A stretch of 60,892 nt of DNA from an uncultured bacterium (GTDB lineage Bacteria; Methylomirabilota; Methylomirabilia; Methylomirabilales; CSP1-5), in contig CAYSDK010000001.1 in assembly GCA_964429865.1 (NCBI GenBank), positions 1 through 60,892 of the forward strand. The letters run 5' to 3'. The notes below the pieces were generated by a model. It saw only the letters and a list, made by a program, of their open reading frames with translations. It made no database searches and was not told the origin of the DNA. Both the position numbers and the translations under genes were made by a program. Shown here piece after piece: positions 7,310-59,823 of the stretch; within the stretch, counting starts at the first letter, position 1, and every line of letters begins with the position of its first letter.

Positions 7310-8290
7310 ATGCCCGGCATCCTTGTCCTCGGCACGATCGAGAACGGGGTCCCATCCCGCTCAACACTGGAGCTCTTGACCGGCGCGAAGAGACTCGCTG
7401 CGGGGCTTCAGGAAGGTGTCTCTGTCGGACTCCTGGGGCCAGGGGGTGCGGCGTCGCTGTACCGTTACGGGGTCGAAGTCGTCTACCGGGCCAATGATCC
7501 GCTCCTGAAGGAATATCAGGCGGATCTGTACCTGCTGGCGCTCCAGCGGATCGCCCAGGCCGCCGGCGCCAGGGTTCTCCTGCTGCCCGGAGACTCCCTC
7601 GGCCGGGACCTCGCCGCTCGCCTCGCCTTTCGCCTCAAGGCAGGCGTCGTCACGGACGTGATCGAGATTGACATCGAGGGCTCCGAAAAGATGCCGCGCT
7701 TCACACGCCCCGCGTACGGGGGCAAAGCGGCGGCGGTCATCGTTCCCAAGCGCTTTCCCGTCGTAGTGACCTTGAAGCCGCGGACCTTCGATCCCGCTGG
7801 ACCTGCGGGCCAGGGGGAAGGGAAGGAGGTCCCGGTCGAGATCTCATTGGATCCGGCCCAGGCCCGCACCCGGATGGTGGAGCGGGTCCAGGAGGAGACG
7901 ACGGGGGTCAAGCTCGAGGATGCACGGGCGGTGGTCTCCGGTGGCCGTGGACTCGGAGGGCCCGAGGGCTTTACCCTCCTGGTAGAGTTAGCCCGCATCC
8001 TTAAGGGGGCGGTGGGGGCGTCCCGGGCTGCGACCGATGCCGGGTGGGTTCCCTCATCGATGCAGGTCGGCCAGACCGGCAAGACCGTCAGCCCGGATCT
8101 CTATATCGCCGTGGGCATCTCGGGTGCGACCCAACATGTCGCGGGGATCAGCGGCGCCAGGACCATTGTGGCCATCAACGCCGATCCGGAGGCCCCCATC
8201 TTCAAGGTGGCTCACCTGGGGATCGTGGGGGATTACAAGGCCGTTCTCCCTCCCTTGATTGCGAAGTGCCGGGAACTCATGGGGAGTTGA
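7310..8290 (+). CDS. etfA: electron transfer flavoprotein alpha subunit
   Basis: C-terminal FAD-binding signature [28 protein letters not shown]. Directly follows etfB. Confidence 0.9.
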
Positions 8291-10267: not shown

Positions 10268-10273
10268 TAGTGC

Positions 10274-10322
10274 AGGACTCAGGACTGAGGGATGAGGACT
10301 GAGGGATGAGTGACCTGAGGTG
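10274..10322 (+). repeat. heptanucleotide tandem array A (7 in-phase heptads)
   Basis: The heptads are aggactc aggactg agggatg aggactg agggatg agtgacc tgaggtg. The array ends 4 nt before the ATG at 10327, and the last heptad supplies the SD-like GAGGTG. Confidence 0.85.
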
Positions 10323-10326
10323 ATAC

Positions 10327-11244
10327 ATGAGGATTGTGTCGTTATTGCCCAGCGCGACGGAGATCGTCTATCTGCTGGGACTGGGGGATCACCTCACCGG
10401 AGTGAGCCACGAGTGTGATTATCCCCGGGCGGCGCTTGGCAAGCGCAAGATCATTGCCCCTGCCTTCGAGAGCTCCGGGCTCAGCAGTCAGGAGATCGAC
10501 GGCAGTGTCCGGGCCTTCCTGGGGCGAAATGAGGGGATCTATCGGATCGATTTCGAGGCCTTGAAGGCGGCCGATCCCGACCTGATTGTGACCCAGGAGC
10601 TGTGTGATGTCTGTGCCGCCCCTTACCAGGATGTCGTGGAGGCGGCGACACACCTTTCGCGAAAACCCGAGATCCTTTCCCTGAACCCGCACCGTCTCGG
10701 GGATGTGCTCCAGGATGTCGAGCGGGTCGGGGAGGCGACGGGACGATTCCGCGAGGCAACGCAGGCTGTCGCCTCGCTCACCGAACGGATCGATCGCGTC
10801 GAGAAGCGGGCGGCCAACGCCAAGACCCGGCCACCCGTGGCGTGTCTGGAGTGGCTGGACCCGATCATGGCCTCGGGCCACTGGGTCCCAGAGATGGTGG
10901 CCCTGGCTGGCGGCAGAGAACCACTCGGAAAGGCGGGGGAGCCATCGGAACGGGTGCAGTGGGAGCGGGTCCTCTCCTGTGCACCCGAGATCCTGATCCT
11001 CATGCCCTGCGGCTTTTCCGTAGATCGGACTCTGGACGAGATCCACCTCTTGACCAATCGTCCGGGCTGGGAGGGCCTGCCGGCAGTGAGGCGGGGCAAG
11101 GTCTTTGCCGTGAACGGTCACGCCTACTTCAGCCGATCGGGACCGCGCCTGGTGGACGGAACCGAGATCTTGGCTCATCTCGTGCATCCGGAACTCTTCC
11201 GGGACCCGATTCCGGCAGGGGCAGCAACAACCGTTGACCGATGA
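10327..11244 (+). CDS. BtuF/FecB-type (periplasmic-binding-protein fold, cobalamin-binding-like) protein without a signal peptide
   Basis: It starts directly with the first strand-helix of the fold (MRIVSLLPSATEIVYLLGLGDHLTGVSHECDYP). No hydrophobic or basic leader and no lipobox. 305 aa. Confidence 0.7.
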   Translation: MRIVSLLPSATEIVYLLGLGDHLTGVSHECDYPRAALGKRKIIAPAFESSGLSSQEIDGSVRAFLGRNEGIYRIDFEALKAADPDLIVTQELCDVCAAPYQDVVEAATHLSRKPEILSLNPHRLGDVLQDVERVGEATGRFREATQAVASLTERIDRVEKRAANAKTRPPVACLEWLDPIMASGHWVPEMVALAGGREPLGKAGEPSERVQWERVLSCAPEILILMPCGFSVDRTLDEIHLLTNRPGWEGLPAVRRGKVFAVNGHAYFSRSGPRLVDGTEILAHLVHPELFRDPIPAGAATTVDR

Positions 11245-11298
11245 CCGGGGACCGATGACCGATGACGGATAACCGACGGCCGATGAACGATGACCGGG
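11236..11298 (+). repeat. heptanucleotide tandem array B (9 in-phase heptads, consensus GACCGAT)
   Basis: The heptads are gaccgat gaccggg gaccgat gaccgat gacggat aaccgac ggccgat gaacgat gaccggg. The array spans the TGA stop at 11242-11244 and the first codons of the mutase ORF. Confidence 0.85.
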
Positions 11299-20685: not shown

Positions 20686-20907
20686 ATGGCCAAGGCAGAG
20701 GGAAAGAAGGCAGAGGGAAAGAAGGTAGAGGGAAAGGTGGCGAAGTTGGCCTCGCGCGAGGTCAACGGTCAGGCTGTCCGCGTGTACCCCTGTCCCGCCG
20801 ACGGGACCAAGATGAGCTGGATCCATTACTTTGGGGAGAACGGGCGGGGGAGGATGGCCCTCCGGTGTGAGAAGTGCGGGGCCATCAAGGGACGATCCGA
20901 ACTGTAA
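20686..20907 (+). CDS. small lysine-rich repeat / zinc-ribbon-like protein (73 aa), unknown function
   Basis: It has its own promoter-like element, a strong SD (GGAGGTG) and a strong terminator. The N-terminus is MAKAEGKKAEGKKVEGKV. The C-terminal part carries CP...H...CEKCG. Confidence 0.6.
   Translation: MAKAEGKKAEGKKVEGKVAKLASREVNGQAVRVYPCPADGTKMSWIHYFGENGRGRMALRCEKCGAIKGRSEL
20695..20739 (+). repeat. 3 x 15-nt in-frame tandem repeat (gcagagggaaagaag)
   Basis: Copies at 20695-20709 and 20710-20724 are identical. The third, 20725-20739 (gtagagggaaaggtg), is diverged. Together they encode AEGKK AEGKK VEGKV. Confidence 0.9.
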
Positions 20908-20928
20908 CCCGGGGGTCGAAAAGACACA

Positions 20929-20957
20929 GGGGGGGCATAGCCCCCCCTTCTTTTTTT
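20929..20957 (+). terminator. intrinsic terminator
   Basis: Stem gggggggc (20929-20936) / gccccccc (20940-20947) with loop ata, followed by ttcttttttt. Confidence 0.8.
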
Positions 20958-21231
20958 CCTTACATCCTGGCGATCGCCGCAGGTATTTTCAGGCGGCCGC
21001 TGAAAATCTCGTATCGTTTTGGTGTGAATTCTAAACGGTTGGCGTGAGAAAGGGCGCTTCGTTTCGAGCCGGTGTGGCCAAGCAATTCTGTCGGTCCTGG
21101 TCCCAACCCGCCCGTGAAACCACAAACGGTTGGATCTAGGCAGGCTGGATGGGATATAATACGTGAATGTGGACAGTGAGGTGCAAGGCTAACTTTTGAA
21201 GCTACCGCACTATGTTGGAAGCGAGGATCCG

Positions 21232-35700: not shown

Positions 35701-35707
35701 CGACCGC

Positions 35708-35828
35708 GTACAGAGTGCAGAATAGTGCAGCAAGGTGCAGAGTACAGCGTGCAGGGTGCAGCGGGGTGCAGAGCACAACGTGCAGAGTAGAGCGTGCAGG
35801 GTGCACGGTGAAGGGATAGAGTAGAAAG
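35708..35828 (+). repeat. heptanucleotide tandem array C (17 heptads, core GTGCAGN/GTRCAGN, three 3-nt phase spacers)
   Basis: The layout is gtacaga gtgcaga [ata] gtgcagc [aag] gtgcaga gtacagc gtgcagg gtgcagc [ggg] gtgcaga gcacaac gtgcaga gtagagc gtgcagg gtgcacg gtgaagg gatagag tagaaag, then the ATG of asd at 35829. Confidence 0.9.
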
Positions 35829-37591: not shown

Positions 37592-37861
37592 ATGGCTATC
37601 ACTGGAAATCCTCTCGCCATAGCACGGGAAATTGGAGACGGCTTTCACTCGCTGACCACGACATCCCTGAAGAGGTACACGCCCGCCGACCTGAAGACCA
37701 TCAACACCAGCCTCCAACAGGTCCTCCGAGACGCCCGGGGAGAGGCGCCCACGCCGGGCGACGCCGAGGCGATCCGAAAGAAAAACCTCCGCCTCCAGCG
37801 CCTGAATACCGCCGTTCTGACGCTCGCCAACTACTGCCGCCAACAGCGCATTCCCATCTGA
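37592..37861 (+). CDS. hypothetical protein (89 aa), start abuts the truA stop
   Basis: The ATG follows the truA TAG immediately. The composition is protein-like ([28 protein letters not shown]...). No family was recognised. It overlaps, in another frame, the non-coding 5' extension of the leuS ORF. Confidence 0.4.
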
Positions 37862-38016: not shown

Positions 38017-40596
38017 ATGGCCAGATCGTACGATTTCAAGGGCGTTGAGGCCGGGGTGCAGCAGGTCTGGGAAGAGCGGAAGGCCTTCCGGGTGACGGAG
38101 GACGCCACACAGCCGAAATACTACTGCCTAGTGATGTACCCCTATCCCTCCGGGAAGATCCACATGGGGCACGTCCGCAACTACGCGATCGGAGATGTCG
38201 TGGCGCGGTACTTCCGGATGCGCGGCCACAACGTGCTCCACCCGATGGGATGGGATTCCTTCGGCCTGCCGGCAGAGAATGCGGCCATCGAACACGGGGT
38301 GCATCCGGCGACCTGGACGGTCGACAACATTACGTATATGCGGACGCAACTCAAGCGGATGGGCCTCTCCTACGACTGGGATCGCGAGATCACGTGTAGC
38401 GATCCCGAGTACTATCGGTGGAATCAATGGCTCTTTCTCAAGATGTATGAGAAGGGGCTCGCGTACAAGAGGCCGGCATTGGTCAACTGGTGCGATGTCT
38501 GCCAAACGGTCCTCGCCAACGAACAGGTGGAAGGGGGGCGGTGCTGGCGCGATGACTCGGTGGTCATCCAGAAGGAGCTGGATCAATGGTTCTTGAAGAT
38601 CACCGCCTACGCCGAGGAGCTCCTCACAGGGCTGGATCGATTGCCAGGCTGGCCCGAGCGGGTCAAGGCGATGCAGCGGAACTGGATCGGGAAGAGCGTC
38701 GGCGCCCAAGTGGACTTTCCGATGGTGAGCGGCGGCCCCCCCATCGCTATCTTCACGACCCGGCAGGACACCCTCTACGGGGCCACCTTCATGGTGCTGG
38801 CGCCGGAGCATCCACTGGCCCGGGAGCTGGCCCGCGGAAGGCCGGAGGTCGAAGGCTTCATCGAGCGGATGCGGACGGAAGACCGCCTGGTCCGGACCGC
38901 GGCCGAGAGCGAAAAGGAGGGGGTGTTTACCGGCGCCTTCGCCATCAATCCGTTGACGCAAGAGAAGATCCCCATCTGGCTCGCCAATTTCGTCCTGTTG
39001 GAATACGGGACCGGCGCCATCATGTCGGTGCCCGCGCACGACCAGCGGGATTTCGAATTCGCCAAGAAATACCACCTCCCGATCCGGCTGGTCATTAATC
39101 CAGAAGAAGGCACCCTCGTCGCCGCGGACCTGGAAAAGGCCTATGAAGGCGAGGGGCTCATGGTGAATTCGGGGCCCTTCAACGGGTTGCCCAGTGGGGA
39201 AGGGCGGGAGGCGGTCGCTCGATATCTGGAAGAGCGGAGGATTGGCAGCGGAGCGGTGAACTATCGGTTGAGGGACTGGGGGATCTCCCGGCAGCGGTAC
39301 TGGGGGACCCCCATCCCCATCATCTACTGTGACCGGTGCGGCACGGTCCCGGTTCTCGAGCGCGACCTGCCGGTCCTGCTCCCTCGGGACGTCGAGATCA
39401 CCATGAAGGGGGGGTCCCCGCTGGCCCGGGTCAAACGCTTTGTCAACGTGAGCTGTCCGACGTGTCACGGGCCGGCCCGTCGAGAGACCGATACGATGGA
39501 TACCTTTGTCGATTCCTCCTGGTACTTCCTCCGCTTCTGCAGCCCCAAGGAGGAGAACCGCCCCCTCGATCCCGCGAAGGTGGCGCACTGGATGGCAGTG
39601 GATCAGTATATCGGGGGGATCGAGCACGCGGTCCTCCACCTGCTCTACGCACGATTCTTTACGCGGGTGATGCGGGACCTAGGGTTGGTTGCGATTGACG
39701 AGCCGTTCGTGAATCTCCTCACGCAAGGCATGGTCTGCAAGGAGACCTACCGGTGCCCCACCCATGGCTACCGGCTCCCCGAAGAGGTGAATGCCAAGGG
39801 GCGGTGCACCGCGTGTGGCGAGCCGGTAGAGATAGGCCGGACCGAGAAGATGTCCAAGTCGAAGAAGAACGTCGTGGACCCGGACGACCTGATGAATCGC
39901 TATGGGACGGATACCGCCCGCGTCTTCTCGCTCTTCGCCGCGCCGCCGGAGAAGGACCTGGAATGGTCCGACAAAGGGGTCGAGGGGGCCTTCCGGTTCC
40001 TCAACCGGGTATACCGGCTGGTGGACGGATGGGCGGAGGAGCTCTGCCGTCCGGTGAAACCCGTCTCCTTCGCCGCCCTGACGGTGGGCCGGGCGCTCTA
40101 CCAGAAGGCCCACTTCACCATCAAGAAGGTGACCGAGGATCTCGACCGGAATTTTCACTTCAACACGGCCATCGCCGCGCTCATGGAGCTCGTAAACAGC
40201 CTGGGGCAATGTGATCTCGGTGGCACGCCAGAAGAACGGGAAGAAAAAAGGGCGGTGGTGCGCTTTGCGGTCGAGACCCTGCTCGTCCTCCTCGCTCCCT
40301 TTGCCCCCCACCTGGCGGAAGAGTTGTGGCAGCGCCTCAGCCATTCCCGGAGCATCTCAGAAGCATCGTGGCCTGCGTATAGCACCGAGGTGATTCAGCG
40401 AGAGGAAATCCTGGTGGTCGTCCAGGTCAATGGGAAGCTCAGAAGCCGGCTCCTGCTGCCCGCCGATGCCGAAGAGGAAGCGCTCCGGACGGCGGCGCTC
40501 CAGGACAGCCGGATCCAGACGTGGCTCGAGGGAAGACAGGTGGTCCGGGTCGTGGTGGTTCCCAAGAAACTGGTCAACATCGTGACCGACGAGTAA
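38017..40596 (+). CDS. leuS: leucine--tRNA ligase
   Basis: [14 protein letters not shown] (HIGH), KMSKSKKN (KMSKS), and the CP1 editing domain. The start is at ATG 38017 (GGGAGAAAG SD); the upstream 150 in-frame codons look non-coding. Confidence 0.96.
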
Positions 40597-40750
40597 CAGC
40601 TGTCAGCCATCCGCTGTCAGCAGTCAGCCATCAGCAGCCAGAGACGTGAGACCGGAGACGGGAGATACCAGACGATAGTCTCCGCTCTCCAGTCTCAAGT
40701 CTCCGGGCTCCGGTCTAGTCCCTGACGGCTGACGGCAGACAGCTGAAGAG
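40597..40750 (+). repeat. heptanucleotide tandem array D: 22 in-phase heptads arranged as [CAGCNNT]6 [NNGAGAC]5 [TCCNNTC]6-7 [TGACGGC]3 (a palindrome of arrays)
   Basis: The heptads are cagctgt cagccat ccgctgt cagcagt cagccat cagcagc cagagac gtgagac cggagac gggagat accagac gatagtc tccgctc tccagtc tcaagtc tccgggc tccggtc tagtccc tgacggc tgacggc agacagc tgaagag. No indel occurs over 154 nt. The right-hand blocks are reverse complements of the left-hand blocks. Confidence 0.9.
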
Positions 40751-40765
40751 CTGCGGGGAGTGTGC

Positions 40766-41272
40766 GTGAGGACGATTCAGACAACGGTGGCCGTTATCGT
40801 CATCGCCCTGGTCGGGGGTGCGTGTGGCTATCGCGGCCAGGTGAACCTTCCGAACGACCTGCAACGGATCCATGTGGCGGTCAGCAACAAAGGGACCTTT
40901 CGACCTGGACTCGAGACCGCCGTCACCCAAGCCCTGACCCAGCGCATCCTCAGCGCCGGGGGCCGAGTCGTGGCGGATGAGACACAGGCGGACGCGACGA
41001 TGAAGGCCGCGATTGTCGCCCTTGAGAACAATCCGGTGGCTTTCGATGCGCAGGATATTGCCCAACGGTTCCGGTTGGCGGTCGTCGTCAACCTGCAGGT
41101 GATCCAGCGGAAGGACAAGGTTGAGCTGGCGAATGAGCAGGTCCGGGGAGAGGCGTACTACTCTACCCCCCCCGGGATTACGGGGACTACGGTGGCGGAG
41201 AATGATGCGATCCGTCGGGCCCTTCGTGATCTTGCCGATAAGGTCGTCACCAGGGTGGTGGACCCTTTCTGA
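40766..41272 (+). CDS. lptE: LPS-assembly lipoprotein LptE
   Basis: Signal peptide plus lipobox-like VIALVGGAC. Conserved leuS-lptE-holA synteny, as in E. coli. A GTG at 40760 is an alternative start. Confidence 0.7.
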   Translation: MRTIQTTVAVIVIALVGGACGYRGQVNLPNDLQRIHVAVSNKGTFRPGLETAVTQALTQRILSAGGRVVADETQADATMKAAIVALENNPVAFDAQDIAQRFRLAVVVNLQVIQRKDKVELANEQVRGEAYYSTPPGITGTTVAENDAIRRALRDLADKVVTRVVDPF

Positions 41273-41305: not shown

Positions 41306-42283
41306 GTGATCCGGGGCCAAGTGGCTCCGGCGTATCTTCTGCTGGGTGAGGAAGTCCTCCTCCGCGAAGAGTTTCTCTCTCGCCTGCTGAGCGCTCTCTT
41401 GCCTCCCGGGATGGAGACCCTCAATCGGGAAATCCTTTCAGGGAGCGAGACAGCTTCCGCCGATCTCGCCACCCGCTGTCGGACGGTTCCCGCCTTTGCA
41501 CCGTGGCGGGTCGTAGTGCTGAAAGAGGCAGACCGGCTCCGCAGTGAGGTCTGGGACGCAATGCTGTCCTACCTGGACGCCCCATCCCCGACCACGTGTC
41601 TCATCTGTGTGGCTGACAAGCTGGAGCACGGGCACCGCGGACTCAAGCGCATCGAGGAGGTGGGGAAGGTCCTCCGGTTCGCCTTGCCGAAGGACGGGGA
41701 AGGGCGTGAGCGGCAGTGTCAGGAGTGGATGCGGCAGCGTGCACGACAACAGGGGAAATCCCTGACTCCCGAGGCGGAGCGACTGCTCTTGACGCTCCAG
41801 GGTCCGGATCTCTTGCGTTTGAGCCAGGAGGTGGACAAGCTCTGCCTCTTCGTCGGGGAGCGAGAGCAGATCGACCCTGAGGCGGTAGAGACCCTGGTCG
41901 GCCAGGGGAGGGTGCGGGGGATTTTCGAGCTCACGGCCGCGGTGAGCCGCCGGGACCTCAATGGAGCCTTGTCCTGTCTCCGACACCTCCTGGAAAAGGG
42001 AGAGGAGCCCCTGGGGATGCTGGGGATGCTGGCACGTCAACTGCGGCTCCTCGTGCGGGCCAAGGAACTCCTCGCGCAGTCTTCACCTCCCGCCGAGATC
42101 AGCCGGCTGCTCGGACTCCCACGTCCTTTTGTTTCAGAGATTCTGGAGGCGGCACATATCTCGTCCCTGCCCCGGCTGGAGCAAGGGCTCGCCCGCCTGC
42201 TCGACCTGGACCGAAGGCTGAAATCGTCGGGGGGGGGCCAACCCCTTTTTCTGGAGCTGGCCGTGATCGATCTCTGCTCATGA
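41306..42283 (+). CDS. holA: DNA polymerase III delta subunit
   Basis: N-terminal APAYLLLGEEVLL, length ~325 aa, and position after lptE. Confidence 0.8.
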   Translation: MIRGQVAPAYLLLGEEVLLREEFLSRLLSALLPPGMETLNREILSGSETASADLATRCRTVPAFAPWRVVVLKEADRLRSEVWDAMLSYLDAPSPTTCLICVADKLEHGHRGLKRIEEVGKVLRFALPKDGEGRERQCQEWMRQRARQQGKSLTPEAERLLLTLQGPDLLRLSQEVDKLCLFVGEREQIDPEAVETLVGQGRVRGIFELTAAVSRRDLNGALSCLRHLLEKGEEPLGMLGMLARQLRLLVRAKELLAQSSPPAEISRLLGLPRPFVSEILEAAHISSLPRLEQGLARLLDLDRRLKSSGGGQPLFLELAVIDLCS

Positions 42284-42291
42284 AGGTCGGA

Positions 42292-42564
42292 CTACTGGGA
42301 GCTCCCGCGGCCCTGCACCTGATGGGCGAGCCGGGACTTGTAGCGGGCCGCCGTTCGGGAATGGATGATCCCCTTGGAGGCGGTCTTGTCGATAATCGCC
42401 ACCGCTGCCTGAAAGGCAGCCACGGCCGCCTCCCGGTTTCCCGTCTCTACCGCGTGACGGACCCTCTTTATGGTCGTTCGGAGTCGGCTTCTGGCCCTGC
42501 GGTTGCGCAGGGCTCGCACCTGGGCCTGGCGCAACTGCTTCGCTGCCGATCTGGTGTTGGGCAT
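42292..42564 (-). CDS. rpsT: 30S ribosomal protein S20
   Basis: MPNTRSAAKQLRQAQVRALRNRRARSRLRTTIKR... is a typical S20. GGAGGA SD on the minus strand. The longer 246-aa ORF was trimmed to the internal Met. Confidence 0.93.
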   Translation of the reverse strand: MPNTRSAAKQLRQAQVRALRNRRARSRLRTTIKRVRHAVETGNREAAVAAFQAAVAIIDKTASKGIIHSRTAARYKSRLAHQVQGRGSSQ

Positions 42565-42619
42565 CGATCCATCCTCCACGAGAACGCGGCAACGGATTGT
42601 ATAGAGGAATTCCATCCCG

Positions 42620-59703: not shown

Positions 59704-59771
59704 CAAGGCCCCAATAGGGGTGTAGGGGAGGGGTTTTCTGGGTGTCCGAAGCCTTATGCTAGTTCAGTGTT

Positions 59772-59823
59772 ATGTAAATTGCGTGAGCAGTTTACATAAT
59801 ACTTCTTATGCGACGTTACATAA
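59772..59823. repeat. AT-rich inverted + direct repeat cluster between convergent genes
   Basis: Inverted repeat atgtaaa (59772-59778) / tttacat (59791-59797). The direct repeat ttacataat occurs at 59792-59800 and again at 59815-59823. Confidence 0.7.

What the first reader, a model, noticed from the sequence alone, without database searches (positions are those of the whole stretch)
40597..40750. 154-nt perfectly phased heptad array organised as a palindrome of arrays between leuS and lptE
Starting one base after the leuS stop, 22 consecutive heptads occur with no indel: six CAGCNNT, five NNGAGAC, six to seven TCCNNTC, then TGACGGC TGACGGC AGACAGC. Reading across unit boundaries, block 3 (GTCTCC) is the reverse complement of block 2 (GGAGAC). 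Block 4 (GCTGAC, ...GACAGCTG) is the reverse complement of block 1 (GTCAGC, CAGCTGTC...). The RNA or DNA could therefore fold into a long imperfect hairpin, e.g. agaccggag 40649-40657 with ctccggtct 40708-40716, and cagctgtc 40597-40604 with gacagctg 40738-40745. I know of no described element with this architecture. It sits inside the conserved leuS-lptE-holA string.
Basis: seen in the sequence. Interest (0 to 1): 0.75.

Follow-up and report, generated by a model that had tools for sequence, protein, structure and literature searches.

The report
Fast-evolving heptad-repeat hairpin between genes
The 154 bases between leuS and lptE are a real hairpin-forming block of 7-base tandem repeats, but they belong to the long-known and still unexplained intergenic heptamer repeats of bacteria, and the block changes, shrinks or is replaced between closely related strains.

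Summary
Window 40597-40750 holds 22 in-phase heptads in four blocks: (CAGCNNT)6, (NNGAGAC)5, (TCCNNTC)5-6 and (TGACGGC)3. Block 3 is the exact reverse complement of block 2, and block 4 is the complement of block 1 with one mismatch. It folds into a ~65-bp imperfect hairpin. An independent metagenome assembly carries the same element with 2 SNPs.

It is not a new kind of element. The host is a Methylomirabilales (NC10) bacterium whose co-directional gene junctions carry heptad arrays: four in this 61-kb window, and more in relatives. Intergenic heptamer repeats are the commonest tandem-repeat class in prokaryotes. Inverted pairs of such arrays are already described in Xanthomonas and Geobacter.

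The spacer is hypervariable. In relatives with 90-96% identical flanks it is:
- a copy-number variant of the same hairpin (126 nt);
- block 1 alone (47 nt);
- 23 nt;
- a 145-210-nt palindrome of octad arrays.

More distant relatives have leuS and lptE 13 nt apart or overlapping. Substitution rate is near neutral, and some indels are exact unit multiples.

Best reading: a compound repeat generated by slippage and inverted duplication, which puts a long stem-loop into the leuS-lptE-holA transcript. Any effect on expression is unproven. No Rfam family, terminator, promoter or mobile-element signature was found.

The parts
38017..40596 (+). leuS (leucine--tRNA ligase); the TAA stop at 40594-40596 lies directly before the array
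   Evidence: TIGR00396 at 1101.8 bits. The start MARSYDFKG matches relatives.
40597..40638 (+). Block 1 (outer left arm): six heptads CAGCNNT (read across unit boundaries, NGTCAGC)
   Evidence: Homologous block 1 is present in L092, in L095 (5 units, an exact 7-nt difference), in L085 (3 units) and as remnants in L096/97/99.
40639..40673 (+). Block 2 (inner left arm): five heptads NNGAGAC, carrying Shine-Dalgarno-like GGAG
   Evidence: L099 has a copy-number variant (GGAGACC x3 identical, plus 2 more).
40666..40678 (.). Apex or loop of the hairpin; the centre of symmetry is about 40672
   Evidence: 13 nt lie between the longest inner arms (I1). Loop in the MFE structures.
40679..40716 (+). The consensus is the exact reverse complement of block 2.
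40720..40750 (+). Block 4 (outer right arm): three to four heptads GCTGACN / GACAGCT, the reverse complement of block 1 with one mismatch
   Evidence: (I2-I4, I8)
40755..40760 (+). GGGGAG Shine-Dalgarno of lptE. It lies outside the hairpin, 5 nt before GTG 40766.
   Evidence: Read from the sequence. The same motif sits at the same position in relatives.
40766..41272 (+). lptE (alternative in-frame start GTG 40760)
   Evidence: Pfam PF04390 at 55.9 bits. Relatives align from residue 3.
41306..42283 (+). holA (DNA polymerase III delta)
   Evidence: TIGR01128 at 227.7 bits
10268..10326 (+). Sister array filling the spacer between two co-directional genes: CAGGACT / GAGGGAT heptads (TGAGG-type)
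11227..11296 (+). Sister array (ACCGATG)n. It spans the stop of the upstream gene and the probable start of the methylmalonyl-CoA mutase gene.
   Evidence: The same unit family occurs as an inverted pair in L085 at 7620-7760.
35701..35828 (+). Sister array (GTGCAGN)n filling the leuD-asd spacer
   Evidence: Homologous array in L081. Relatives carry GTGAACN arrays at this spacer, direct or inverted.

Best explanation
The element is a compound, inverted heptanucleotide simple-sequence repeat. It is one instance of the intergenic heptamer tandem repeats that many bacteria carry, and that this Methylomirabilales lineage carries in its co-directional gene junctions.

Origin (inferred). Short arrays arose just after the leuS stop (block 1) and next to the lptE ribosome-binding region (block 2) by replication slippage in 7-nt steps. 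The composite left arm was then copied in inverted orientation by fold-back or template-switch synthesis, giving [A][B]-loop-[B'][A']. Since then each arm has gained and lost whole units independently and has accumulated substitutions at about the neutral rate.

Consequence (inferred, not shown). leuS and lptE are 13 nt apart or overlap in more distant relatives, and no promoter or terminator lies in the spacer, so the array is probably transcribed within a leuS-lptE-holA mRNA. There it would form a ~65-bp imperfect stem-loop running from 1 nt after the leuS stop to 9 nt before the lptE Shine-Dalgarno. Such a stem would abolish translational coupling. It is a plausible substrate for RNase III or a barrier to 3' exonucleases. 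It could therefore shift lptE-holA output relative to leuS, by an amount that changes whenever units are gained or lost. The specific sequence is dispensable.
For: Class membership:
- Period 7 is the only strong non-coding period in the window. 121 windows of 42 nt have lag-7 match >= 0.6, against 0 at lags 2-6, 8, 10, 11 and 13.
- All four arrays fill spacers between co-directional genes.
- Over 1.17 Mb of non-redundant loci from several phyla there are 37 period-7 arrays, against 9 octad, 2 decad and 1 undecad. This agrees with the literature (10.1101/309039; PMC4679880 introduction).

The inverted arrangement recurs:
- 4 of 6 adjacent heptad-array pairs are reverse complements, against a background probability of 0.01. 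They come from Thermodesulfobacteriota, Syntrophobacteraceae, Acidobacteriota and Methylomirabilales.
- Further cases lie in L085 and L086.

Slippage:
- Window and L095 differ by exactly one heptad in block 1.
- L081 and L082 encode identical LeuS but differ by 16 nt, which is two octads.
- L099 has three identical GGAGACC units on one arm only.

No sequence conservation:
- With flanks ~90-96% identical, the spacer is 169, 126, 47 or 23 nt, or an octad palindrome of 145-210 nt.
- It is 13 nt at 72% LeuS identity, and a 4-nt overlap at 68%.

Near-neutral rate:
- Window versus L099: 13% mismatch in aligned spacer columns, against 15-19% at third codon positions.
- L093 versus L094: 9/240 in the spacer against 56/1500 in the flank.

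Operon context:
- No sigma-70-like promoter and no T-tract terminator in the spacer.
- The Shine-Dalgarno lies outside the hairpin.
- The genome does use canonical T-tract terminators, for example 20918-20965.

Functional precedent: in H. influenzae the (ATCTTTC)n repeat of the hmw 5'-UTR forms a long RNA hairpin that RNase III cleaves, setting expression and repeat dynamics (PMC12721329).
Against: - No transcript, processing or expression data exist for this organism. Co-transcription and any effect on lptE/holA are inferences.
- Slippage alone does not explain why units share a 5-nt core but differ at two positions. It also does not explain why 7 nt is favoured; that question is open in the literature.
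- The hairpin architecture has persisted across ~10% flank divergence (L099). Palindromes of arrays have arisen at this one spacer with two different periods (7 and 8). Both facts could reflect selection for a hairpin rather than mutational bias.
- Unit families recur at other spacers: CAGCNNT, ACCGATG, GTGAACN and GTGCAGN. That hints at a trans-acting reader or a copying process.
- Inverted duplication as a single event is not demonstrated. The variable positions of the two arms are not mirrored (alignments).
Confidence: 0.6

Rival explanations
1. The hairpin is an adaptive cis-regulatory RNA. It would be an intercistronic stem-loop maintained by selection, acting as an RNase III site, a stabiliser of the leuS 3' end, or a translational insulator. 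Its repeat-unit number would act as an evolvable rheostat for LptE/HolA dosage, as at the H. influenzae hmw 5'-UTR.
For: - Very stable fold.
- The hairpin fills the spacer exactly from stop+1 to just before the Shine-Dalgarno.
- A homologous hairpin is retained at ~90% flank identity, with roughly matched arm lengths: A1 B5 | B'4 A'1 against A6 B5 | B'6 A'3-4.
- An unrelated octad palindrome occupies the same spacer in other strains.
- Experimental precedent in PMC12721329.
Against: - Relatives with ~96% identical flanks manage with 23-nt or 47-nt spacers that have no inverted arm.
- More distant relatives have overlapping genes.
- Substitution rate is about neutral.
- Differences between L093 and L094 mostly break + strand pairs.
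- In several alleles the antisense strand folds better than the mRNA strand.
- Three of the four arrays in the window are not palindromic.
Confidence: 0.22
2. The heptads are binding sites for a protein that reads 7-nt steps. This could be a nucleoid or regulatory DNA-binding protein (as speculated for Geobacter), or an RNA-binding cold-shock or S1-domain protein with a footprint of about 7 nt (as speculated for TAACTGA repeats).
For: - Core-plus-variable unit design (CAGCNNT, NNGAGAC).
- A few unit families recur at different spacers and in different genomes.
- Published speculation in PMC2700814 and PMC4679880.
Against: - Units differ completely between spacers of one genome, and between strains at the same spacer, including a change of period from 7 to 8.
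- No candidate reader was identified.
- The arrays are dispensable in close relatives.
Confidence: 0.1
3. It is a mobile or REP/MITE-like palindromic insertion that landed between leuS and lptE.
For: - Presence/absence polymorphism among close relatives.
- Overall inverted symmetry.
- Replacement of the whole spacer by an unrelated palindrome in other strains.
Against: - No second copy of the element or of its arms exists in the 61-kb window or in ~1.2 Mb of related loci, apart from the orthologous spacer.
- No terminal inverted repeats distinct from the arrays, and no target-site duplication.
- Block 1 alone is present in L095 and L085, so the element was built up in situ.
- Length changes come in unit multiples.
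Confidence: 0.04
4. It is an intrinsic transcription terminator or attenuator separating leuS from lptE-holA.
For: A strong GC-rich stem-loop directly after a stop codon.
Against: - No T/U tract follows the stem on either strand.
- The genome has canonical T-tract terminators elsewhere.
- No promoter-like site precedes lptE.
- The genes overlap in relatives.
Confidence: 0.04

Closest known systems
Xanthomonas / Nostoc G-rich heptamer repeats (GGGAATC, heterogeneous (GGGANTN)n), including convergent inverted pairs (Rehm et al. 2015, PMC4692102)
   Same: - Intergenic heptamer arrays with conserved core positions and variable positions.
- Frequent arrangement as two arrays on opposite strands close together, able to form stem-loops or cruciforms.
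- Extensive length and sequence variation between close relatives at the same intergenic position.
   Different: - One dominant G-tract unit family with G-quadruplex potential. Here there are several unrelated unit families without G-tracts.
- Here two families are nested in one palindrome.
- Different phylum (Methylomirabilota).
Geobacter metallireducens multicopy tandem hepta- and octanucleotide sites found in pairs on opposite strands (classes 1-3; Aklujkar et al. 2009, PMC2700814)
   Same: - 3-5 tandem units of 7-9 nt.
- Usually occur as a pair on opposite strands at variable distance.
- Located between genes, including within operons (proB-proA).
- Both 7- and 8-nt periods occur.
   Different: - There, each class is a multicopy family with a defined consensus, found at 8-24 loci. 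Here, each spacer has its own units.
- Their proposed role as IHF/HU or global regulator sites is untested.
Long simple sequence repeats of 5-11 nt (Mrazek et al. 2007, as summarised in PMC4679880), the heptamer-dominated intergenic tandem repeats of the SPADE survey (10.1101/309039), and TAACTGA repeats of Beggiatoaceae (PMC4679880).
   Same: - Heptamer period.
- Intergenic location.
- Lineage-specific abundance.
- Unknown function.
- Slippage proposed as the source.
   Different: - Those are mostly direct arrays of one or a few fixed units.
- TAACTGA repeats sit just upstream of start codons, and only one indirect repeat was seen.
H. influenzae hmw1A/hmw2A 5'-UTR (ATCTTTC)n repeat hairpin processed by RNase III (PMC12721329)
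   Same: - A transcribed heptamer array forms one arm of a long RNA hairpin just upstream of a coding sequence.
- The number of units sets expression of the downstream gene.
   Different: - There the right arm is a G-rich non-repeat region, not an inverted array.
- It lies in a 5'-UTR behind a promoter, not between cistrons.
- Units are identical and phase-variable within populations.
- That function is shown experimentally. Here nothing is shown.
REP / BIME elements of enterobacteria and pseudomonads (PMC3733652, PMC3116915)
   Same: - Extragenic, often intercistronic, hairpin-forming.
- Hypothesised to act in mRNA stabilisation, transcription termination and DNA supercoiling (PMC3733652).
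   Different: - REPs are 20-40-nt palindromes of a conserved family sequence present in many copies, with a GTAG/CGTC tag. That they are mobilised by RAYT transposases is from my own knowledge.
- This element is single-copy, internally 7-periodic and without family sequence.

Membership tests
Intergenic heptanucleotide tandem repeats (LSSR sensu Mrazek 2007) | Head-to-tail units of 7 nt, repeated more than chance allows | tested here: met
   Lag-7 match 0.605, z = 12.7 against shuffles. TRF finds period 7 with 0% indels.
Intergenic heptanucleotide tandem repeats (LSSR sensu Mrazek 2007) | Located in non-coding spacers; period 7 predominates over other periods that are not multiples of 3 in the genome | tested here: met
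   Four arrays, all in ++ spacers. 37 period-7 arrays against 9 period-8, 2 period-10 and 1 period-11 in 1.17 Mb. Only 61 kb of this genome was available.
Intergenic heptanucleotide tandem repeats (LSSR sensu Mrazek 2007) | Unit-number and sequence polymorphism between related strains | tested here: met
   A 7-nt indel between window and L095. A 16-nt (2 x 8) indel between L081 and L082. Copy-number variant in L099.
Inverted (convergent) heptamer-array pairs, Xanthomonas type (PMC4692102) | Two arrays of reverse-complementary units close together on opposite strands | tested here: met
   B2/B3 inverted distance 0 and B1/B4 distance 1. Arms 79-88% complementary.
Inverted (convergent) heptamer-array pairs, Xanthomonas type (PMC4692102) | G-tract unit GGGNATC with G-quadruplex potential | tested here: not met
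   The units CAGCNNT and NNGAGAC have no G3 tracts. The element shares the architecture but not that sequence family.
Cyanobacterial STRR | Specific units (CCCCAGT, TTGGTCA, CAACAGT) in heterocystous cyanobacteria (from my own knowledge) | tested here: not met
   The units differ. The host is Methylomirabilales.
REP / BIME / REPIN | Conserved 20-40-nt palindromic family sequence in many copies per genome | tested here: not met
   No other copy of the arms in the window or in ~1.2 Mb of loci outside the orthologous spacer. Whole-window inverted-repeat scan. Only 61 kb of this genome was searched.
MITE | Terminal inverted repeats, target-site duplication, multiple copies | tested here: not met
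   No copies. Block 1 is present alone in L095 and L085. No flanking direct duplication seen.
Intrinsic (Rho-independent) terminator | GC-rich stem followed by a U tract | tested here: not met
   No terminator-like site at the spacer. A canonical example exists at 20918-20965.
Any Rfam RNA family | Covariance-model score at or above the gathering threshold | tested here: not met
   The best match is MIR8622 at 23.7 bits against a gathering score of 197, which is a chance match.
SSR-hairpin / RNase III switch (H. influenzae hmw type) | The heptamer array is transcribed and forms a long RNA hairpin | tested here: inconclusive
   The hairpin is predicted in silico. Transcription is only inferred from operon context.
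SSR-hairpin / RNase III switch (H. influenzae hmw type) | RNase III cleavage, and expression of the downstream gene that depends on unit number | not testable with these tools
   Needs RNA end-mapping and reporter assays.

The most novel reading that the evidence does not exclude
In some lineages, periodic hairpins made of 7- or 8-nt arrays are actively and repeatedly written into operon junctions by a dedicated process. One candidate is transcription- or RNase III-coupled repeat expansion acting on both arms of an RNA/DNA hairpin. Another is a reader with a 7-nt footprint. The resulting hairpins would serve as rapidly evolvable rheostats that set protein stoichiometry within operons. The leuS-lptE spacer, with at least five radically different natural alleles among strains whose flanks are 90-96% identical, would then be a natural experiment that exposes the process. 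It could make the old question 'why heptamers?' testable.
Probability: 0.12. Interest if true: 0.7.

Novelty: new member of a known kind. Interest (0 to 1): 0.35.

Why it matters
Heptamer tandem repeats are the commonest intergenic tandem repeats in prokaryotes, and their origin and function are still unexplained. This locus adds three things:
- a first documented case in Methylomirabilota (NC10);
- a nested, two-family version of the inverted-pair arrangement;
- an unusually rich allelic series at one operon junction.

The allelic series runs from overlapping genes, through 13 nt, 23 nt, a single array and a heptad hairpin in two copy-number states, to an octad hairpin in several lengths. It shows that such hairpins are built and rebuilt in place on short evolutionary time scales.

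If the hairpin alters lptE/holA expression, it would be a simple way to tune stoichiometry inside an essential operon. If it does not, it is a clean example of mutationally driven, near-neutral structure in bacterial spacers. In that case it is also a caution against reading function into striking symmetry.

Tried and rejected
- **Rfam search of the spacer.** Only chance hits, far below gathering thresholds.
- **Terminator and promoter scans.** Nothing in the spacer.
- **Genome-contig scan with LeuS.** It was useless for close comparison, but it showed by accident that heptad arrays and inverted pairs are widespread.
- **Exact look-up of the window's LptE.** Not on record.
- **L100 (P0027).** The contig ends inside leuS, so there is no spacer to read.
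- **Antisense or DNA strand as the functional strand.**
  - The - strand folds better in the window and in the octad alleles (A.C-type against G.T-type positions: 8:2, 8:4, 13:5).
  - Background skew does not explain this.
  - The homologous allele in L099 folds better on the + strand.
  - I therefore treat the asymmetry as unexplained, not as evidence.
- **Purifying selection on the spacer.** Divergence is close to third-codon or flank divergence, so no clear constraint.
- **Mirrored variable positions between arms, as a test of a recent single inverted duplication.** Not seen; the arms pair equally well in several registers.
- **Mobile-element idea.** No other copies.
- **Literature on repeats in Methylomirabilis.** Nothing relevant.
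- **One paper search failed on a formatting limit.**
Full report
**1.
- Directly after the leuS stop (TAA, 40594-40596) the + strand reads as 22 heptads with no indel. They are six CAGCNNT, five NNGAGAC, an apex heptad GATAGTC, five TCCNNTC plus a degenerate TAGTCCC, then TGACGGC TGACGGC AGACAGC TGAAGAG.
- The lag-7 self-match is 0.605, against 0.14-0.29 at lags that are not multiples of 7. In 5000 dinucleotide-preserving shuffles, the best match over lags 2-30 averaged 0.346 and never exceeded 0.438 (z = 12.7).
- Tandem Repeats Finder reports four period-7 sub-arrays with 0% indels.
- The block consensus units are CAGCTGT, CGGAGAC, GTCTCCG and GGCTGAC. Block 3 is the exact reverse complement of block 2. 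Block 4 is the reverse complement of block 1 with one mismatch. Among unrelated heptad arrays such a match occurs with probability about 0.01.
- The arms are 79-88% complementary and pair in several registers offset by 7 nt.
- Folding gives a single long imperfect hairpin. As RNA, the + strand gives -84.2 kcal/mol (z -4.7) and the - strand -98.5 (z -7.75). As DNA, the values are -40.2 and -46.0 (z -5.7 and -6.8). No shuffle reached these values.
- The phrase 'perfectly phased across 22 units' is meaningful only within blocks, because the unit changes between blocks.

**2. It is not an artefact.** A JGI metagenome contig (L092) has flanks 99.7-100% identical to the window. It carries the same element with two substitutions and no length change.

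**3. Context.**
- leuS is 38017-40596 (TIGR00396, 1101.8 bits).
- The next ORF is LptE (Pfam 55.9 bits). It probably starts at GTG 40766, behind a GGGGAG Shine-Dalgarno at 40755-40760.
- holA follows at 41306-42283, then murJ.
- The spacer has no sigma-70-like promoter and no T-tract terminator. No Rfam family matches.
- The genome does use canonical terminators, for example 20918-20965.
- LeuS homologues place the organism in Methylomirabilota (NC10), order Methylomirabilales. Identity is 94% to an unnamed JGI protein, about 80% to several 'Ca. Methylomirabilales' MAGs, and about 68% to Ca. Methylomirabilis oxyfera and lanthanidiphila.

**4. The element is one of many.**
- Period 7 is the only strong non-coding period in the window. 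121 windows of 42 nt have lag-7 match >= 0.6, and none do at lags 2-6, 8, 10, 11 or 13.
- Four spacers are filled with heptads, all between co-directional genes: 10268-10326, 11227-11296, 35701-35828 (leuD-asd) and the present one. Each has different units.
- In 1.17 Mb of non-redundant loci from several phyla I counted 37 period-7 arrays, against 9 octad, 2 decad and 1 undecad. The period-6, -9 and -12 arrays number 15, 11 and 9; these periods are multiples of 3, and I did not check whether those arrays are coding.
- Of six adjacent pairs of heptad arrays, four are reverse complements of each other. They lie in a Thermodesulfobacteriota, a Syntrophobacteraceae, an Acidobacteriota and a Methylomirabilales contig.
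- More inverted cases lie in L085 (asd-truA spacer) and L086 (leuD-asd spacer).
- A few unit families recur at different spacers and in different genomes: CAGCNNT, ACCGATG, GTGAACN and GTGCAGN.
- In the syntenic 22-kb regions of the more distant clades (LeuS 68-72%) there are no heptad arrays, and genes abut or overlap.

**5. What is already known.**
- Heptamer units dominate the 5-11-nt tandem repeats of prokaryotes, and polymerase slippage with a ~7-nt contact was proposed as the cause (Mrazek 2007, as summarised in PMC4679880 and PMC4692102).
- In Xanthomonas, heterogeneous (GGGANTN)n arrays occur 70-75 times per genome as convergent inverted pairs. These can form stem-loops or cruciforms, and they vary in length and sequence between close relatives (PMC4692102).
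- The Geobacter metallireducens genome paper describes tandem hepta- and octanucleotide sites that occur mostly in pairs on opposite strands, including one between proB and proA (PMC2700814).
- The architecture 'array plus its inverted array' is therefore described. The nesting of two unit families is the only unusual point.

**6. The spacer is hypervariable.** The table lists every leuS-lptE spacer I could read.

| Locus | Relatedness to window | Spacer | Content |
|---|---|---|---|
| L090/91 | LeuS 68% | 4-nt overlap | none |
| L088/89 | LeuS 72% | 13 nt | none |
| L086/87 | LeuS 81% | 104 / 116 nt | non-periodic |
| L084 | LeuS 80% | 199 nt | direct heptads (TGAAGGG, GTGCAGN) |
| L085 | LeuS 81% | 130 nt | opens with three CAGCNNT units in the same phase after the stop, ends with GGCGGAC AGCGGAC, encloses a different inner hairpin |
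| L099 | flanks 90% | 126 nt | homologous hairpin, different copy numbers: about one block-1 unit, five block-2 units (three identical GGAGACC), four block-3 units, one block-4 unit |
| L095 | flanks ~96% | 47 nt | block 1 only, five units; an exact 7-nt difference from the window |
| L096/97 | flanks 92-97% | 23 nt | block-1 remnants |
| L093, L094, L098 | flanks ~96% | 145-210 nt | palindrome of octad arrays, (GCTAGNAN)n ... (NTNCTAGC)n |
| L081-L083 | flanks: leuS side 93-94%, lptE side 82-88% | 62-78 nt | short derivatives of the octad type. L081 and L082 encode identical LeuS and differ by a 16-nt, two-octad indel. |

- The architecture therefore recurs at this spacer with different units and even a different period.
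- The window's particular sequence is confined to a narrow lineage.

**7. Rates.**
- Between window and L099, aligned spacer columns differ at 13% (16 of 123). Third codon positions differ at 19% in leuS and 15% in lptE. In addition, 49 spacer columns are gapped.
- Between L093 and L094, the spacer differs at 9/240 and the flank at 56/1500.
- This is about the neutral expectation, plus frequent unit-scale indels. I see no clear purifying selection on the sequence.

**8. Mechanism (inferred).** The simplest history has three steps.
- First, heptad slippage produced block 1 behind the leuS stop, and block 2 out of the GGAG-containing region in front of lptE. L095 still shows block 1 followed by a short GAGA-rich stretch and then the start codon.
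- Second, an inverted duplication of the composite arm by fold-back or template switching produced [A][B]-loop-[B'][A'].
- Third, each arm gained and lost units independently. L099 has three identical units on one arm only.

The genes overlap in relatives and the spacer has no promoter or terminator. The array is therefore most likely part of a leuS-lptE-holA transcript.

In that transcript it would form a ~65-bp stem interrupted by 1x1 mismatches about every 7 bp. The stem would start one base after the stop codon and end nine bases before the Shine-Dalgarno, which stays outside the stem.

Such a stem must abolish translational coupling. It is also a plausible RNase III substrate or 3'-exonuclease barrier.

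The nearest experimentally studied case is the (ATCTTTC)n hairpin of the H. influenzae hmw 5'-UTR. RNase III cleaves it, and its unit number sets expression (PMC12721329). Whether anything similar happens here is untested.

**9. Rivals.**
- *Adaptive regulatory hairpin* (0.22). Supported by persistence of the hairpin at ~90% flank identity and by the independent octad palindrome. Weakened by close relatives with 23-47-nt spacers, near-neutral rates, and pair-breaking differences on the mRNA strand.
- *Protein-binding arrays* (0.10). Supported only by the core-plus-variable design and the recurring unit families. Weakened by the complete change of unit and period between strains.
- *Mobile element* (0.04). 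No other copies, and the element was built up in place.
- *Terminator* (0.04). No U tract.
- *Artefact.* Excluded by L092.

**10. Unexplained.**
- In the window and in the octad alleles the antisense strand folds better than the mRNA strand. A.C-type positions outnumber G.T-type positions 8:2, 8:4 and 13:5.
- Background skew does not account for this.
- The L099 allele shows the opposite, so I draw no conclusion.
- Also unexplained: why units keep a 5-nt core with two free positions, and why 7 nt is preferred.

**11. Verdict.** This is a real and striking structure, correctly described. It is a new member, in a new phylum and in a nested form, of a known and widespread class of intergenic heptamer tandem repeats whose function remains unknown. 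Its main value is the allelic series at one operon junction.

Noticed in passing
window 10268-10326; 11227-11296; 35701-35828: Three more heptad arrays, each with its own unit (CAGGACT/GAGGGAT; ACCGATG; GTGCAGN). Each fills a spacer between co-directional genes. The ACCGATG array contains the upstream TGA stop and probably the downstream ATG, as if it grew from an ATGA stop/start overlap. The first array repeats a TGAGG (stop plus SD-like) motif.
   Followed up: partly
L093 2785-2994, L094 97-306, L098 2850-2994, L081-L083 (leuS-lptE spacer): Strains whose flanks are ~96% identical (L093, L094, L098) carry a 145-210-nt palindrome of OCTAD arrays at the same spacer: (GCTAGNAN)n ... (NTNCTAGC)n. 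L081-L083 (flanks 82-94% identical) carry short derivatives of it. The first octad supplies the leuS stop, so LeuS ends ...TDER* instead of ...TDE*.
   Followed up: yes
L095 3001-3055, L096, L097 against window 40766-40820: The first ~55 nt of lptE (the signal-peptide region) are also allelic. They do not align between window-type and L095/96/97-type strains, although the rest of lptE-holA is 92-97% identical. This suggests a recombination hotspot running from the leuS stop into the lptE 5' end.
   Followed up: partly
L085 7500-7770 (asd-truA spacer): Two successive inverted array pairs lie in one 289-nt spacer: a CAGCNNT-type pair and an ACCGATG-type pair. The same unit families occur at other spacers in the window, so unit families are shared between loci and genomes.
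   Followed up: partly
L084 12581-12779: The leuS-lptE spacer of an 80% relative is filled with G-tract heptads (TGAAGGG, with GGG every 7 nt). They resemble the quadruplex-forming Xanthomonas GGGAATC repeats.
   Followed up: no
window 40597-40750; L093, L094 spacers: The antisense strand folds more stably than the mRNA strand, because mismatches on the + strand are mostly A.C. Third-position base skew does not explain this, and the effect is reversed in L099. Unexplained.
   Followed up: partly
window 20686-20965: A small ORF (73 aa, no Pfam hit) begins with a 15-nt tandem repeat, three copies at 20692-20736, encoding KAEGK repeats, and has a CxxC...CxxC tail. It is followed by a textbook bidirectional terminator (GCCCCCCC stem with T and A runs, 20918-20965).
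   Followed up: partly
window 37592-37861: A conserved 89-aa ORF with no Pfam family lies between truA and leuS. It is also called as a gene at the same position in L081-L086.
   Followed up: no
window 59766-59803: An AT-rich, near-perfect 17-bp hairpin (AGTGTTATGTAAATTGC / GCAGTTTACATAATACT) sits in a convergent spacer of an otherwise 63% GC window.
   Followed up: no
L081 12587-12751: The 24-kb JGI contig that holds L081 ends 165 nt past the leuS stop, within the first ~90 nt of lptE. Whether the octad repeat spacer caused the break was not tested.
   Followed up: no
window 42284-42619: Relatives encode rpsT (S20) on the opposite strand between holA and murJ. In the window, the only long minus-strand ORF here (42278-42592) gave no Pfam hit, so rpsT may use another frame or be absent.
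   Followed up: partly
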